NCBI GenBank assembly: GCA_964016885.1
Contig: OZ024749.1
Location: forward strand, 7,874,001-7,938,000
From: Eledone cirrhosa
Taxonomy: Eukaryota
DNA: 64,000 nt
Direction of reading: 5' to 3'
In this document: positions 358 to 49,163 of the stretch, one piece after another
How positions within the stretch are numbered: the first letter of the stretch is position 1
Layout of the letters: the number at the start of each line of letters is the position of its first letter
Notes under the pieces: model-generated
Seen by the model: only the letters and a program-made list of their open reading frames with translations
What the model was told of the DNA's origin: nothing
The model's database searches: none
Made by a program: the position numbers and the translations under genes

Positions 358-567
358 AACGAAGGAAATGTGGTAAGGAACCAGGTGGACCATAACGCAC
401 CAAAGTACTCAATACTTGGGGTAGTAGAGTGGGTAATAGGAACCAGTAAGACCCCGACGGCTGAGCTCAAGCCGTTTCGACGGCTAATTCTGGACCGAAT
501 TCTGGAGTCCAGAATTAGCCGTCGAAACGGCTTGAGCTCAGCCGTCGGGGTCTTACTGGTTCCTATA
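358..567 (-). mobile_element. TA-embedded short element, family A, with fold-back (putative non-autonomous Penelope-like remnant)
   Basis: Flanked by (TA)n. 437-495 is inverted at 506-566. The same sequence recurs at about 28059, 40587, 41508, 43109-43283 and 49286-49446. Confidence 0.7.
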
Positions 568-620
568 TATATATATATATATATACACAGAACGACATCT
601 ATTATGAAATTGATATTATA

Positions 621-690
621 GGGCGGTGGTTGGCAGTATCGGTGGAGCATCGGACACCTTGCTTTGTGGCATAGAGTTATGTACCTTTAT
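621..690 (+). mobile_element. SINE1 5' fragment (tRNA-derived head)
   Basis: Matches the head of full copies (ggcggtgg-tggcagtatcggt). Confidence 0.7.
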
Positions 691-770
691 GTTCATCATC
701 ATCAACATCATCGTCATTAATATGTGTTATTTTCATTGCGTGTTGTTGTCACTACATTACCTAATTGACA

Positions 771-997
771 AGGGTGCTGGTTTGGCAGAATCGGTAGAGC
801 GTCAGAAATTATTATTTTCGGCATATAGTTATGGCGCTTTACGTTCTGAGTTCAGACACTGGCGTGGTTAGCTTTGCTTTTCATCCTTACCAGGTCGATA
901 CAATAAAGCACCAGTGATGCACTGGAGTCTATTAAATCAAATCCACTTTATCCATACATTCCAATTCCTGGCATTGTTCCAAAAGTAGAAACAATTA
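771..997 (+). mobile_element. SINE1, tRNA-derived
   Basis: A-box-like tggcagaatcgg, B-box-like gagttca, central tttcatcctt..gtcgata..aaagcaccag, tail gtagaaacaattatt. Confidence 0.85.
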
Positions 998-1009
998 TTT
1001 TATATTAAT

Positions 1010-1195
1010 TATTTCTACGTTAGGCACAAGTCCAGCAAATACCCAGTGTATTACTGGTACTTTATTTTATCGACCCCGTAAGGATGAAAGGCAAAGCTAA
1101 CCACGGCGGGATTTGAACTCAGAATGGCAAGGGCCGTAACTCTATGCGTCAAAGCATGGCGTGCGACCCTCTACCAATACTGCCAATCCACCGCC
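1010..1195 (-). mobile_element. SINE1 with 16-bp TSD
   Basis: Full copy flanked by the direct repeat attattttatattaat at 994-1009 and 1196-1211. Confidence 0.9.
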
Positions 1196-1544
1196 ATTAT
1201 TTTATATTAATGTTTAATAATCTTCCATCACCTAAAAATCTATTTTTCCGCCCTCATTGTCACATATTTCTGACATATATCTGTAGCTCTCTTTCTCTCC
1301 TGGACAAATATCTTTAATTATAGTTATGGTTGTATGAGTAAATGATGCTGATGTTTTCATAAGATAAAAGAGCGAATAATTGTGAATATCCAGCTATTTC
1401 ATAGCTCGAGGATAACAGTAATGTAATTGTGTTAAAGAATTGTAGTTCAGCTAAAATAGCACCATTCATTCATCTTTTAATCCGCACCTTCGTATTTCTT
1501 CTTCGCTTTATAGTTCTGAGAAGAGCCTAGATTAATATATCGAC

Positions 1545-1763
1545 AGTCGATCGACTTTCGTCAAATCGGACCGAGGAAACACTGTTTCCATTGGTCATTC
1601 CAATTGCTAATACTCTCTATTGGTCGCAACTCCAGGTAGACGGAGCAACGTGAAATAAAGTGTCTTGCTCAAGGACATAACGCATCCCCTACTCCGGGAA
1701 ATCGAACTCACAACCTCACGATTGCGAATCTAATTCTCTAACCACGCAGCCACGTGCCTTCAC
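1545..1763 (-). mobile_element. SINE2, tRNA-derived (V-SINE-like body)
   Basis: Reverse complement of the 45332-45545 copy; B box gagttcgatt; gtccttgagcaagacact motif. Confidence 0.8.
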
Positions 1764-45236: not shown

Positions 45237-45331
45237 AATATACATATATGTGTGGAGTTGGATGAGGGTATAAATATACATGCATATACCTATATTTATA
45301 TGGATATATTCATTGAGTATATATATATAGA

Positions 45332-45545
45332 GAGGCGTGTGGCTGAGTGGTTAGGGAATTGGATTCGCAATCGTAAGGTTGTGAGTTCGATTCCTGGACC
45401 AGGCGATGCGTTATGTCCTTGAGCAAGACACTTTATTTCACGTTGCTCCTTCTACCTGCAGTTGCGACCGATAGATAGTATTAGCAATTGGAGAGACCAA
45501 CGGAAACATTGTTCCCTCGGTCCGATTTGACGAAAGTCGATCGTT
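45332..45545 (+). mobile_element. SINE2, tRNA-derived
   Basis: A box tggctgagtgg, B box gagttcgattcc. Confidence 0.85.
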
Positions 45546-45606
45546 CCTTTTATATATATAGAGAGAGAGAGTGACAATAGGAAATGTGACTTCCTATTGT
45601 CACTCT

Positions 45607-45835
45607 ATATATACACTCGGCAAACTACAGATGTCTTAAACCTGGAGCACAACCCAACGAGTGACGGAACCCGTTACTGCATCGAGTGCTTCAACCAGCG
45701 TCGCCTCTAGTAACCACAAGTTCCTCGCATAATAACCTATATATATATATATAGTAACAGGTTCCGTCTCTCATTGGGTTGTGCTCCAGCTTTAAGACAT
45801 CTGTAGTTTGCAGAGTGTATATATAGAGTGATATA
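45607..45835. mobile_element. TA-embedded element, family G, with an inverted partial copy across a TA run
   Basis: 45607-45678 is inverted at 45752-45823; TCGAGTGCTT at 45682-45691. Confidence 0.6.
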
Positions 45836-47795
45836 GAGTGCTAACTCATTCATATCGTAGGTCGAATTTGCTTGCACACCGCCAAAGATTCGTTTTACTA
45901 AGCCTCCAATTATATATATATATATATATATAAGTATTAATAAAATAGATGTTCTTTTGATCAATTACATTTTATTATACATATTTCGGATGTACAACGA
46001 CAGTATGTCGTCATCACACAACATTTTTGACATAATCATCGAATATTGTTTAACAACCTAATACTTATATATATATATATATATATATATATATATATAT
46101 ATATAAACATTAGGTTGTTAAATGAGTTATATTAGTATCCTAAAAATATATATTTATAATGAAATAAATATGATGCTATAGTGATATATTTTCCATTTAT
46201 TACTATTATTATTATTATTATTATTATTATTATTATTATTATTATTATTATTATTGTTATTATTATATAAATATATATATATATATGATATATTTGTTGT
46301 AGTGAACACAACAGGGAGGTATTCCATTTATTTCCCTTTGTAGCAGTTGTCACGATTTTCGTTGTAAAGTTCCACACATCTCTTAGGAGAAAATGGAAAA
46401 TAGGTAGATTGTTGATTTTAATGCATTTGCCAAGAAGGGATTATAGATTTTAGCAATGAAATGACATGATGTCAAGTGACCATCTTTCACCGGATATTGA
46501 TACAGGTTCCCTGAAAGGCTATCCTGATCGATCGTGATTATACCTTACTCTGATCAGTTTGGGACTCAATACATGCAGGTATGTTAATAATTATAGAATA
46601 TAAACTGTAGTTATTTTTTCTTTCTCTTTTCTTTGATTTTGTCCTGGGTGTGGCGAGGTAAGAAATACAATGGATTATAACCAGAGTATATTAGTAATAT
46701 CGATTTTTCTCAGTCATGAAATTCATACAAAAATTTAAAATATGTAACTATTTATATCTGCAATTTTTGTTTTTTTATTTTTGTTTTTCGTGTCTCATTC
46801 AAACTAATCTTGGATGTCACTCCTAATCAACAATGATTTAGTAACCCCTGTAACCATATTACCGATAATGGTTATAGATTTAAGTGTTCAAGACATTCGC
46901 TTCGCAATCTTGATATGAGGTTCCACGTTCGATCCAAGTGTGTGATATCTTGGACAAGTCTCTTTGCAATAGCGTTAGCATGACGCACGATTTATATATA
47001 CGTATGTATAGAAATTTATACATACATATGTATACGTGTGAGGGGGGGGGGTATGGTCAAATAACGCCTAATAGTCTTGGAGGGGCGTCGTAATAACATA
47101 CGGCCTCTCTTGGCTATTTTAAGCCTGGCGGAGCCCATTTCTCTCCAGGCATGAATACAGCAGATTTAAAGAAAGATAGAAAGTGAGAGAAAGAAAAATG
47201 AGACAAAGATATAGAGGACGAATCGACCCCCAGTATTAGACTGGTATTTCTTTTATCGACCTCGAAAGGATGAACGGCAAAGTTGACTTCGGTGGAATCT
47301 GAACTCCAAGAGAACAGAGCCAGAACGAATACCATAAAGCATTCTATCCGATGTTCTAACGATTCGCCTATATATAATGTGTGAGTGTGAGTGTGTGAGT
47401 TATATATATATATGTGTGTGTGTGAGAGAGAGAATTTGTTTGTGTGTGCATTTGTGTGTATATGTGTGTTATGTATTTCCGTAGAAAAAGTAAGGGAAAG
47501 AAAAGTGCCCTATGTGTAGTACAGAGCTATTTAATTATATGGAAATAAAAAATGTATATATATCTATATATATACAGATATATATACTTTTCTTAACTAC
47601 TTTTCCCATCTTGACGTTATAGTCGCATATATGTTATAGAATGCCGTTAGCTTCTTGCTAAAACAATCTCTATACCTCTCATTTATATTTATATAGATAG
47701 ATAGATAGATAGATAGATAGATAGATATAACCAAAGATTAATATGGTTCGTTGATTATATATATATATATATATATATATATATATATATATATA

Positions 47796-48378
47796 TCACT
47801 GACGAAGGACTATTTTTATCATATGTAACCCATGTGCAACCACGCAGTATTCTTTCTTCTCATGTTTTTTATATATATTTACCTCGCTGCGTTTGTCTGT
47901 TTCTCTCTTACTGCTTCCCCTCTCTCTCTGTTTCTCTCACCTTCTTTCGCCCCCTCTGTCAGTTACACTTTCTCTCCACTGGCCACTTCCACTCACTCAC
48001 TCTCTGTTTCCCCCCTTCTCACTTCCTCCCGTTTGGCCTGTATGGGTTCTCTTCTTGCTCACATCTCACTCACGCGGATGGTCTGCATCACGCTCGCTCA
48101 TGAAATCCACCCAGCTTAAGCTGACCGGATAACCATGTTGCTTGTTTTTTCCTATCTTTGCGTTGCTATCAATCCTTCTTCTTTGTTTACTTGTCTCGCC
48201 CGCTTTACGCGATTTACTTGTCCCAATAGCTTTATTTAGCTATTGCTCGCACCAACCGGAGGTATATGATTTTTAAAGCGATGAAATACCAATGAAGGTT
48301 GGAAAATCACTGACGAAGGACTATTTTTATCATATGTAACCCATGTGCAACCACGCAGTATTCTTTCTTCTCATGTTT
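47796..48378 (+). mobile_element. TA-embedded 511-bp monomer plus 72-bp terminal redundancy
   Basis: 47796-47867 is identical to 48307-48378; both begin tcaCTGACGAagg. Confidence 0.7.
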
Positions 48379-48539
48379 ATATATATATATATATATATAT
48401 GTAATATATATATATATATATATATATATATATATATATATATATATATATATATATATATATATATATATATATATATATATATATTTATGACGAGCAT
48501 GTTTTGAAACAGTGAGCAGGTTTGAAATAAGAAAATAGA

Positions 48540-49163
48540 ATAGCTTTCACCGTTTTTTTTACTAAAGAAATTTTAGCCTGATAATGGGGTTTAGAATCCT
48601 CAGATAAATACTCATCTGTTTCCATTTATCTGAGGGTTCTAAACCCCATTATCATCCTAAAATTTCTTTAGTCAAAAATACGGTGAAAGATATTATATAT
48701 ATATATATAACCAAAGATTAATATGGTTCGTTGATTATTCAACGAATACAGTTTTACAATAGATTAGAAGCACTCGACAAAAGATTTTCCTGGAGTATTT
48801 AATATTATTCAAAATATTAATAAATGAAAAATATTCTCATAATAAAATATATATTTTAATTATGAGAATATTTTTCATTTATTAATATTTTGAATAATAC
48901 ATATATATATTAATTCAAAATATTAACAAAAATAGACATTCGTGTGATCAAGTATATTTTATTATACATATTTCAGAGGTACTGAGCTATCTTCAACAGT
49001 ACCTCTGAAATATGTATAATAAAATATACTTGATGACACGAATGTCTATTTTTGTTAATATTTTGAATTAATATTAATAACTCCGGAAAACCATACTGTT
49101 GAGTTCTTCCAATCTATTGTAAAACTCATTCTTTGATTTATTCATTGAACCTTGTTTAACCTT
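48540..49163. mobile_element. Cluster of three fold-backs (48540-48692, ~48800-48898, 48910-49072), partly family F
   Basis: Inverted arms seen directly; terminus aaccaaagattaatatggttcg is also at ~47729. Confidence 0.65.

What the first reader, a model, noticed from the sequence alone, without database searches (positions are those of the whole stretch)
403..49108. Shared subterminal motif TTGAGT(A/G)CTT across unrelated families
A near-identical 10-mer sits about 40-70 nt from the TA-abutting end, always in the same orientation relative to that end. Plus-strand AAGYACTCAA-like hits: 403-412, 2062-2071, 8419-8428, 12372-12381, 18851-18860, 41707-41716, 41956-41965, 42521-42530, 42651-42660, 48768-48777. 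Reverse-orientation hits: 18672-18681, 21020-21029, 45682-45691, 49099-49108. In families B and I it lies downstream of the hammerhead on the same strand. Inference: a cis signal for RT recognition or 3'-end formation. I know of no description of it.
Basis: partly seen in the sequence, partly recalled or inferred. Interest (0 to 1): 0.8.

Follow-up and report, generated by a model that had tools for sequence, protein, structure and literature searches.

The report
Twin RNA helices set Penelope ends
The shared motif is one strand of a small bulged helix that occurs twice in Hydra-type Penelope-like retrotransposons, whose copies end a few bases before one helix or the other, so the helices likely mark where reverse transcription starts and would explain these elements' puzzling 'tail'.

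Summary
The motif is real and polarised: 22,524 forward-strand matches before (TA)n genome-wide, against 1,816 for the opposite polarity. The families are not unrelated. Five (my labels A, B, C, I, Y) run straight into Hydra-clade Penelope-like (PLE) RT-endonuclease ORFs; two more lie behind degraded ones. The 10-mer is the 3' strand of a helix, RCTC-Y..R-YY-GAGY-RCT, whose inner stem covaries across 42 marine Hydra elements. The helix occurs twice per unit: after the hammerhead and just before the ATG. Tandem copies hold both. In a blind 600-kb sample, 34 of 34 TA-abutting ends fall 0-8 nt 5' of helix 1 or helix 2 (6.2 expected). The outer end therefore sits at helix 2, which is not copied there. 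The motif seen 40-70 nt from TA is helix 1, and it marks the end of the inverted arm. Best model (inferred, 0.65): the PLE protein docks on each helix and primes on a UA just 5' of it, so two helices give two ends and the 'tail'. I found no description in seven literature searches. No binding or RNA data were obtained.

The parts
359..563 (-). Family A (my label) Hydra-PLE 3' end with fold-back arm. Tail 359-402, motif 403-412, helix-1 5' strand 427-430, 3' half of a variant hammerhead 451-478
   Evidence: ORF link
2015..2579 (-). Family D copy with inverted arm (2326-2579). Motif 2062-2071, 5' strand 2145-2148 (67-nt loop), hammerhead-like core 2206-2312
   Evidence: degraded Hydra endonuclease upstream in L393
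8357..8630 (-). Family B copy. Motif 8419-8428, 5' strand 8439-8442, canonical type I hammerhead 8492-8557
   Evidence: ORF link
12319..12502 (-). Family C fold-back copy. Motif 12372-12381, 5' strand 12397-12400
   Evidence: ORF link
15427..15611 (-). Motif 15480-15489, 5' strand 15505-15508
18260..18736 (+). Family F copy (5' limit approximate). Hammerhead 18477-18589, 5' strand 18644-18647, motif 18672-18681. No parent ORF found
18790..19214 (-). Family B fold-back copy. Motif 18851-18860, 5' strand 18871-18874, hammerhead 18924-18989 and its mirror at 19110-19175 (+)
20934..21066 (+). Family E copy. Hammerhead with a mutated GAAA 20938-20984, 5' strand 21007-21010, motif 21020-21029
24525..26690 (-). 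Family Y: 2-kb palindrome, the 3' UTR of a very young autonomous Hydra PLE. Variant motif with GAGC at 24654-24663, 5' strand GCTC 24688-24691, variant hammerhead 24738-24784
28060..28172 (-). Family A copy with an internal deletion that removed the 5' strand. Motif 28103-28112
40588..40721 (-). Family A short fold-back copy. Motif 40632-40641, 5' strand 40656-40659
41510..41642 (-). Family A copy. Motif 41548-41557, 5' strand 41572-41575
41664..41858 (-). Family D fold-back copy. Motif 41707-41716, 5' strand 41790-41793
41886..42530 (-). Family G partial tandem. Motif 42521-42530 and tail, then helix 2 (5' strand TCTC 42393-42396, 3' strand 42300-42309, T-A first pair, 79-nt loop), then a second motif at 41956-41965 whose 5' strand is deleted
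   Evidence: degraded Hydra ORF upstream in L403
42612..42773 (-). Family E fold-back copy. Motif 42651-42660, 5' strand 42670-42673, hammerhead 42696-42743
43110..43283 (+). Family A fold-back copy. 5' strand 43212-43215, motif 43230-43239
45600..45737 (+). Family H copy. Probable 5' strand 45615-45618 (by eye, long loop), motif 45682-45691. Parent not sought
45834..45910 (+). Family J, 5'-truncated at the motif (45834-45843). Parent not sought
48710..48900 (-). Family I fold-back copy. Motif 48768-48777, 5' strand 48793-48796
   Evidence: ORF link
48911..49163 (+). Family I fold-back copy. 5' strand 49080-49083, motif 49099-49108, 3' half of hammerhead 49007-49026
49277..49445 (+). Family A copy with an internal deletion. 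Motif 49392-49401

Best explanation
The motif is the 3' strand of a bulged helix (RCTC-Y..R-YY-GAGY-RCT) that occurs twice in the pseudo-LTR of Hydra-clade Penelope-like retrotransposons, and each helix likely serves as the RNA docking site that makes the element's RT start copying at a UA/AU 0-8 nt 5' of it, primed by a nicked (TA)n target. Shown: the helix, its two copies, its covariation, the link to Hydra ORFs, and the position of genomic ends. Inferred: a tandem transcript carries hammerhead, helix 1, tail, helix 2 and then the ATG. Priming at helix 2 gives the long end, which carries helix 1 40-70 nt inside and leaves helix 2 uncopied. The end at helix 1 is the tail-less end of the inverted arm. 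The tail is simply the spacing between the helices. Whether the helix-1 end comes from a second priming on the RNA or from the stop or cut of a snap-back strand is not resolved.
For: Predicted then found: family A continues in tandem copies into helix 2 four bases after its TA end (326 matches, control 0), then a 717-aa Hydra ORF. For B, C and I a pattern blind to the end position gave 815 matches against 14 control matches, and 28 of 30 fetched loci go on into a Hydra ORF. End positions fall within -10..+1 of a helix in 34 of 34 blind ends (6.2 expected if any TA/AT would do), 20 of 21 window ends and 75 of 76 ends in loci not chosen for these ends. D: 4 of 6 ends at -4; E: 16 of 16 between -12 and -4. 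Of 62 helix-1 ends with an inverted partner, 44 partners end at helix 2, 10 run through it, 8 end elsewhere and none was classed as ending at helix 1. In 42 non-redundant marine Hydra 5' regions, 36 carry GAGYRC and 28 carry it twice; ORF-internal control 6 and 0. Watson-Crick pairs at the first three inner positions: 51, 34 and 29 of 55, against 29, 15 and 14 in shuffles (0 of 5000 each). The first pair is G-C, A-T or T-A in different families. Loops run from 3 to 79 nt. Published coral and sea-cucumber Hydra consensus sequences carry the helix. Contigs of two public runs show loose TA ends 3 nt before helix 1; one also shows an end 5 nt before helix 2, and in the other depth falls from 67,621 to 845 past that point. 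Precedent: the Poseidon PLE PAc starts RT internally at two sites that bound the tail and needs RNA 3' of them (PMC11167929).
Against: No binding, priming or RNA data. Copies within a family are not independent: the real units are five families times two sites. The shuffles ignore relatedness. Evidence for the strand is weak (G-U against A-C: 9 to 4, 4 to 0). Of 23 window sites, only 6 have pairing probability above 0.9, 7 lie at 0.2-0.6, 7 are below 0.2 and 3 have no partner (several of these are deleted copies). Offsets vary from 0 to -12 and are blurred by TA microhomology. Many fold-backs have nearly symmetric centres, which fits snap-back better than two independent cDNAs (crude measure). 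Families E, F, H and J are not linked to an ORF. End mapping in marine loci was underpowered (2 mapped). Of 6 published Hydra consensus sequences only 2 show a clear helix.
Confidence: 0.65

Rival explanations
1. The signal acts on DNA. The GIY-YIG endonuclease recognises the motif in the pseudo-LTR or in the folded-back cDNA and cuts at a TA just 5' of it, so the ends arise by endonuclease resolution, at least at helix 1.
For: Craig et al. ascribe the tail to endonuclease resolution. Frangieh et al. cite that the D. virilis endonuclease needs the tail sequence. Fold-back centres are often nearly symmetric. The helix could also form in cDNA.
Against: Loops of 3-79 nt and compensatory stems do not fit a double-stranded site. 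Helix 2 is absent from a cDNA that begins 5' of it. PAc tail ends match RT start sites in vitro.
Confidence: 0.15
2. The helices direct RNA 3'-end formation (cleavage, or a stop against 3' trimming) a few bases 5' of each helix, and RT then starts at the free RNA end.
For: Fixed offset 5' of a structured motif; some ribozymes cut at their 5' border (recalled).
Against: The conserved core is only about 15 nt, has no Rfam match and seems too small for a known ribozyme. Complete cutting at helix 1 would abolish the long end, which is the commoner one (118 against 77). PAc uses unprocessed RNA.
Confidence: 0.1
3. The helices are promoter, translation or packaging elements of the 5' UTR, and the ends coincide only because TA-rich sequence precedes them.
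For: Helix 2 lies mostly 20-60 nt before the ATG, and the bases at -8 to -5 are A/T rich.
Against: Other TA/AT dinucleotides in the same region are not used (34 of 34 against 6.2 expected), and the same offset holds at both helices.
Confidence: 0.06
4. Neutral shared ancestry or chance.
For: All linked families descend from Hydra PLEs.
Against: Flanks and tails are unalignable while the core is kept across octopus-like, coral, sea-cucumber and unnamed marine elements. It is absent from 27 of 27 Neptune-like 3' UTRs.
Confidence: 0.04

Closest known systems
Hydra clade of Penelope-like elements (Craig et al. 2021, PMC8557442)
   Same: Single RT plus C-terminal GIY-YIG ORF, RW-R/DKT motifs, CxCx5C linker, CxxC and CxH, (TA)n targets, hammerhead near the 3' end, tandem and inverted insertions.
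   Different: The passages, sections 11 and 15 and supplement parts read name no conserved helix. Units here are longer (about 3.5 and 4.2 kb against under 3 kb), tails reach 80-165 nt against 30-40, and families A and Y have variant hammerhead cores.
PAc Poseidon PLE internal initiation (Frangieh et al. 2024, PMC11167929)
   Same: Two internal RT starts bound the tail; RNA 3' of the start is needed; AT-rich targets.
   Different: PAc starts lie inside the ORF in an AC-rich stem-loop, and the text read defines no binding element. Here two sequence-conserved helices in the 5' UTR each sit a fixed distance 3' of an end.
LINE/SINE 3' stem-loops and R2 3' UTR recognition (recalled)
   Same: A structured cis element recruits the RT.
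   Different: Those lie 5' of the start and are copied; helix 2 lies 3' of the start and is not copied at that end.
Telomerase RNA template definition (recalled); TERT fold
   Same: The predicted Hydra protein (pLDDT 92) has TERT as top structural match (3du5_A, E 1.4e-8). A helix at a fixed distance from a short primer-pairing site would be analogous.
   Different: TM-scores are only 0.32-0.37, and DRT9 and retron RTs score nearly as well. No homology of the RNA elements was tested.
Non-LTR retrozymes (PMC7229834, PMC7761336, bioRxiv 10.64898/2026.07.22.740005)
   Same: Short hammerhead-bearing repeats thought to be mobilised by PLEs.
   Different: Most copies here are 5'-truncated fold-backs of ORF-bearing parents, not tandem circles. 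PMC7761336 says retrozymes show no conserved motif pointing to their mobiliser.

Membership tests
Penelope-like element | Telomerase-related RT and GIY-YIG endonuclease in one ORF | tested here: met
   717- and 819-aa ORFs; TERT top fold match; GIY-YIG only weak in Pfam, E 0.019, below cut-off; no Pfam family for the whole ORFs at E 0.01
Penelope-like element | Tandem pseudo-LTR units, inverted 5'-truncated copy, tail at one end | tested here: met
   Tandem periods of about 3.54 kb and 4.2 kb; inverted arms
Hydra clade | RWK-type and DKT motifs, CxCx5C linker, CxxC and CxH around the endonuclease end | tested here: met
   Read in the A and Y ORFs: RWR, DKT, CNCxxxxxC, CNLC, CKH/CQH; definition
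Hydra clade | Insertion into (TA)n | tested here: met
Hydra clade | Canonical hammerhead near the 3' end | tested here: inconclusive
   Canonical CTGATGA core in B, E, F; variant cores in A, D, Y; no cleavage assay
Hydra clade | Phylogenetic placement with named Hydra proteins; absence of the CCHH motif | not tested
   No tree with the published or Repbase proteins was built
Hydra clade (families E, F, H, J) | Parent ORF of Hydra type | tested here: inconclusive
   F: none attached in 8 extended loci. E: no junction among 10 pattern hits, tail similar to D. H and J not sought
Naiad or Neptune PLE | Motif at their own 3' ends | tested here: not met
   0 of 27 Neptune-like 3' UTRs; not seen by eye in the Naiad_Ovul and Naiad_Obim consensus ends
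Any Rfam family | Covariance-model match | tested here: not met
   Window: only microRNA-type and similar matches below gathering score among the 150 of 213 rows listed. Ten marine loci: one chance match

The most novel reading that the evidence does not exclude
A helix beginning RCTC about 5 nt 3' of the priming site is the general template-defining element of endonuclease-bearing PLEs. Three Neptune-like families in this genome also carry ACTYGTGT 4-5 nt after their short TA end, with a complementary stretch before the ATG in two of them. A portable element of about 25-30 nt would then program where a telomerase-related RT starts on any RNA, and two copies would program a two-ended insertion: a living model for telomerase template definition and a possible gene-writing tool.
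Probability: 0.3. Interest if true: 0.85.

Novelty: new variant of a known kind. Interest (0 to 1): 0.66.

Why it matters
How Penelope-like elements choose their ends, and why they carry a tail and an inverted arm, is an open question that the 2021 clade paper leaves for in vitro work and the 2024 PAc paper only partly answers. A conserved, covarying helix at a fixed distance from both ends gives exact mutations to test. The genome also offers a ready substrate: at least 150 copies with an identical endonuclease domain, many in an intact 832-codon frame. It also shows that many short TA-embedded repeats in this genome are truncated Hydra PLE ends, which bears on repeat annotation.

Tried and rejected
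Neptune-like GIY-YIG elements as parents: no motif at their own ends. Naiad as parent: octopus consensus ends lack it; one match in Naiad_Mmer lies about 400 nt from the end and was taken as chance. Pattern searches for helix 2 in families D and E gave 4 and 10 hits with no true junction. Family G short-end mapping was discarded because the reference stretch included a repeat; F gave no short ends. The reverse-strand control is uninformative, since the 5' strand mirrors the core. Mapping ends in marine loci was underpowered. Viral contigs gave no relatives. RNA runs: no RNA holder listed. Solved structures by sequence: nothing below E 0.3. Earlier scan findings: none. The contig look-up by exact protein was closed, so named host species for the marine loci are lacking. 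Lünse 2017 and Arkhipova 2017 were not held; Repbase notes, Pyatkov 2004 and the PAc supplementary figures were not seen and could bear on novelty.
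Full report
Setting. The window is G000:C9:7874001-7938000 of a 3.0-Gb animal genome rich in (TA)n. It is probably an octopod; this is inferred from the only species-named protein relative listed, from Argonauta hians, and was not verified. Family letters are my own labels.

Observation. 18 of the 22 window hits with at most one mismatch lie 37-70 nt from a TA run on one side. Genome-wide the pattern followed by (TA)6 has 22,524 forward-strand matches, against 642 for the reversed pattern and 1,816 for the opposite polarity. 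Reverse-strand counts are inflated by overlapping matches and are not used. In 60 blind 10-kb stretches, 26 of 92 hits lie 25-80 nt before a TA run; three control 10-mers gave 1 of 62, 0 of 219 and 1 of 66. The tails of 11 window families are unalignable except D with E (1 of 55 pairs beat all 300 shuffles).

What the elements are. Self-comparison shows most sites in fold-back structures with one unique extension. Craig et al. describe this anatomy for Penelope-like elements: inverted 5'-truncated copy, tail, (TA)n targets. The 2-kb palindrome at 24.5-26.7 kb has 40 scored matches at 99-100% identity among 2,009 candidates. Longer copies show it is the 3' UTR of an intact RT-endonuclease ORF with the Hydra-clade motifs. 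All 150 scored matches to its endonuclease domain are 100% identical. The predicted structure of the family A protein has TERT as its top match. Neptune-like elements found with the Pfam GIY-YIG model lack the motif at their own ends (0 of 27), and so do the two octopus Naiad consensus ends read by eye.

The motif is half of a helix. Upstream of nearly every intact site lies ACTC or GCTC, complementary to GAGT or GAGC, with an inner stem and a 2-nt bulge. In 77 Hydra-type loci from marine metagenomes the same element follows the hammerhead. Among 55 regions upstream of an ORF start, reduced to 42 non-redundant ones, 36 carry GAGYRC and 28 carry it twice; ORF-internal windows gave 6 and 0. Of 64 instances, 55 have a CTC partner. 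Without requiring pairing, the first three inner positions are Watson-Crick in 51, 34 and 29 of 55, against shuffle means of 29.4, 14.9 and 13.5 (0 of 5000 each). The bulge is TT 38, TC 10, TA 6, TG 1, and ACT follows in 49 of 55. These shuffles ignore relatedness. The first pair is G-C in marine elements, A-T in helix 1 of most families here and T-A in helix 2 of family G. Of the 6 published Hydra consensus sequences, Hydra-2_Amil and Hydra-2_Ajap carry the helix clearly, Hydra-1_Crog a near variant, and three do not show it. Folding alone supports the helix unevenly: 6 of 23 window sites above 0.9, 7 at 0.2-0.6, 7 below 0.2, 3 without a partner.

Two helices, two ends. The marine tandems suggested that a second helix should follow each TA end in uncut copies. 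For family A the search gave 326 matches (control 0), nearly all of those listed with the same 4-nt spacer. 19 of 20 fetched loci show the GAGCAC strand of helix 2, followed by the start of a Hydra ORF (some of the 20 share an array). For B, C and I a pattern blind to the end position gave 815 matches against 14, and 28 of 30 loci continue into a Hydra ORF. D and G lie downstream of degraded Hydra ORFs in single loci (L393, L403), F has none attached in 8 loci, E gave no junction, and H and J were not sought. Mapping TA-abutting ends onto six reference junctions puts 34 of 34 blind ends, 20 of 21 window ends and 75 of 76 unselected ends within -10..+1 of a helix start; 6.2, 4.2 and 13.4 were expected if any TA/AT were used. 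The modes are -5 at helix 1 and -3 at helix 2, blurred by TA microhomology. Ends not at TA were few (1, 3 and 6), and 1, 0 and 29 hits at locus edges were set aside. The independent units are five families times two sites. Of 77 helix-1 ends, 62 have an inverted partner: 44 partners end at helix 2, 10 run through it, 8 end elsewhere. Contigs of two public runs show loose TA ends 3 nt before helix 1 of family Y, and one also 5 nt before helix 2; these runs may come from the same organism as the assembly.

Mechanism. Shown: structure, duplication, ORF link, end positions. Inferred: the protein binds the helix in a tandem transcript, the nicked (TA)n end pairs with a UA/AU just 5' of it, and copying starts there. 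The Poseidon element PAc does start at two internal sites that bound the tail and needs RNA 3' of them, but no binding element was defined in the text read. Open: whether the helix-1 end is a second priming or the stop or cut of a snap-back strand, since many fold-back centres are nearly symmetric. Rivals are endonuclease recognition on DNA (0.15), RNA processing (0.10), another 5' UTR role (0.06) and neutrality (0.04).

Literature. Searches. Seen: PMC8557442 (passages, sections 11 and 15, supplement parts 1, 2, 23, 24, 52, 53 of 59, two supplement searches); PMC11167929 (parts 1-2 of 4); bioRxiv 10.64898/2026.07.22.740005 (part 1 of 5 and passages); PMC13282606 (part 1 of 3); PMC7229834, PMC7761336 and PMC4209133 (passages). 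None of this describes the helix. Rfam has no match. Two relevant papers were not held, and Repbase notes and the PAc supplements were not seen.

Verdict. A real feature and a new cis element of a known clade. Interest 0.66: it turns the open question of PLE end choice into exact mutations on a probably active element.

Noticed in passing
L031, L058, L041, L057, L067, L073, L061, L069: Three Neptune-like PLE families also have two TA ends and carry ACTYGTGT 4-5 nt after the short end. In tandem junctions of two of them a complementary stretch sits before the ATG, suggesting one long-range helix around the tail. Not quantified.
   Followed up: partly
window 24525-26690; L283, L284: Family Y looks currently active: 150 of 150 scored endonuclease matches are identical and many lie in an 832-codon frame. 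Its 3' UTR is about 1.7 kb long.
   Followed up: partly
window 451-478, 24738-24784; L269; L078: Variant hammerhead cores (TTGAGAA or CTGAGAA in A, CCGAAGA in Y, TTGATAA in a Neptune-like family) with intact stems by eye; activity unknown.
   Followed up: no
window 490-510 and many family A loci: Family A copies fold back very often at about the same place, the 3' strand of the long hammerhead stem II, so a truncation hotspot may set their ~200-nt size.
   Followed up: partly
window 2804-5052 (-), 55943-58338 (-): Frameshifted non-LTR retrotransposon ORFs with RVT_1 matches; R4/Dong-like by recalled motifs, not tested.
   Followed up: partly
window 31562-33301 (-), 7986-8309 (-): L1/Tx1-like RT fragments by recalled motifs; the two are 78% alike over 289 nt.
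   Followed up: no
window 770-925, 1001-1211, 20657-20928, 21232-21417, 22230-22423, 23134-24393, 30268-30478, 49732-50138: A dispersed ~200-nt SINE-like family with many copies, often in inverted pairs.
   Followed up: no
window 11601-18087, 8720-10173, 37212-39427: A 6.5-kb interrupted (TA)n array holding two near-identical family C insertions, and two long minisatellites of 26 and 22 nt.
   Followed up: no
window 19523, 22116 (+), 7068 (-): Further hammerhead-like cores of small PLE type with no motif of this kind noted nearby.
   Followed up: no
PMC13282606, Table 1: That octopus annotation lists 893 recently active unclassified SINE families; some may be truncated PLE ends like these. Not tested.
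   Followed up: no
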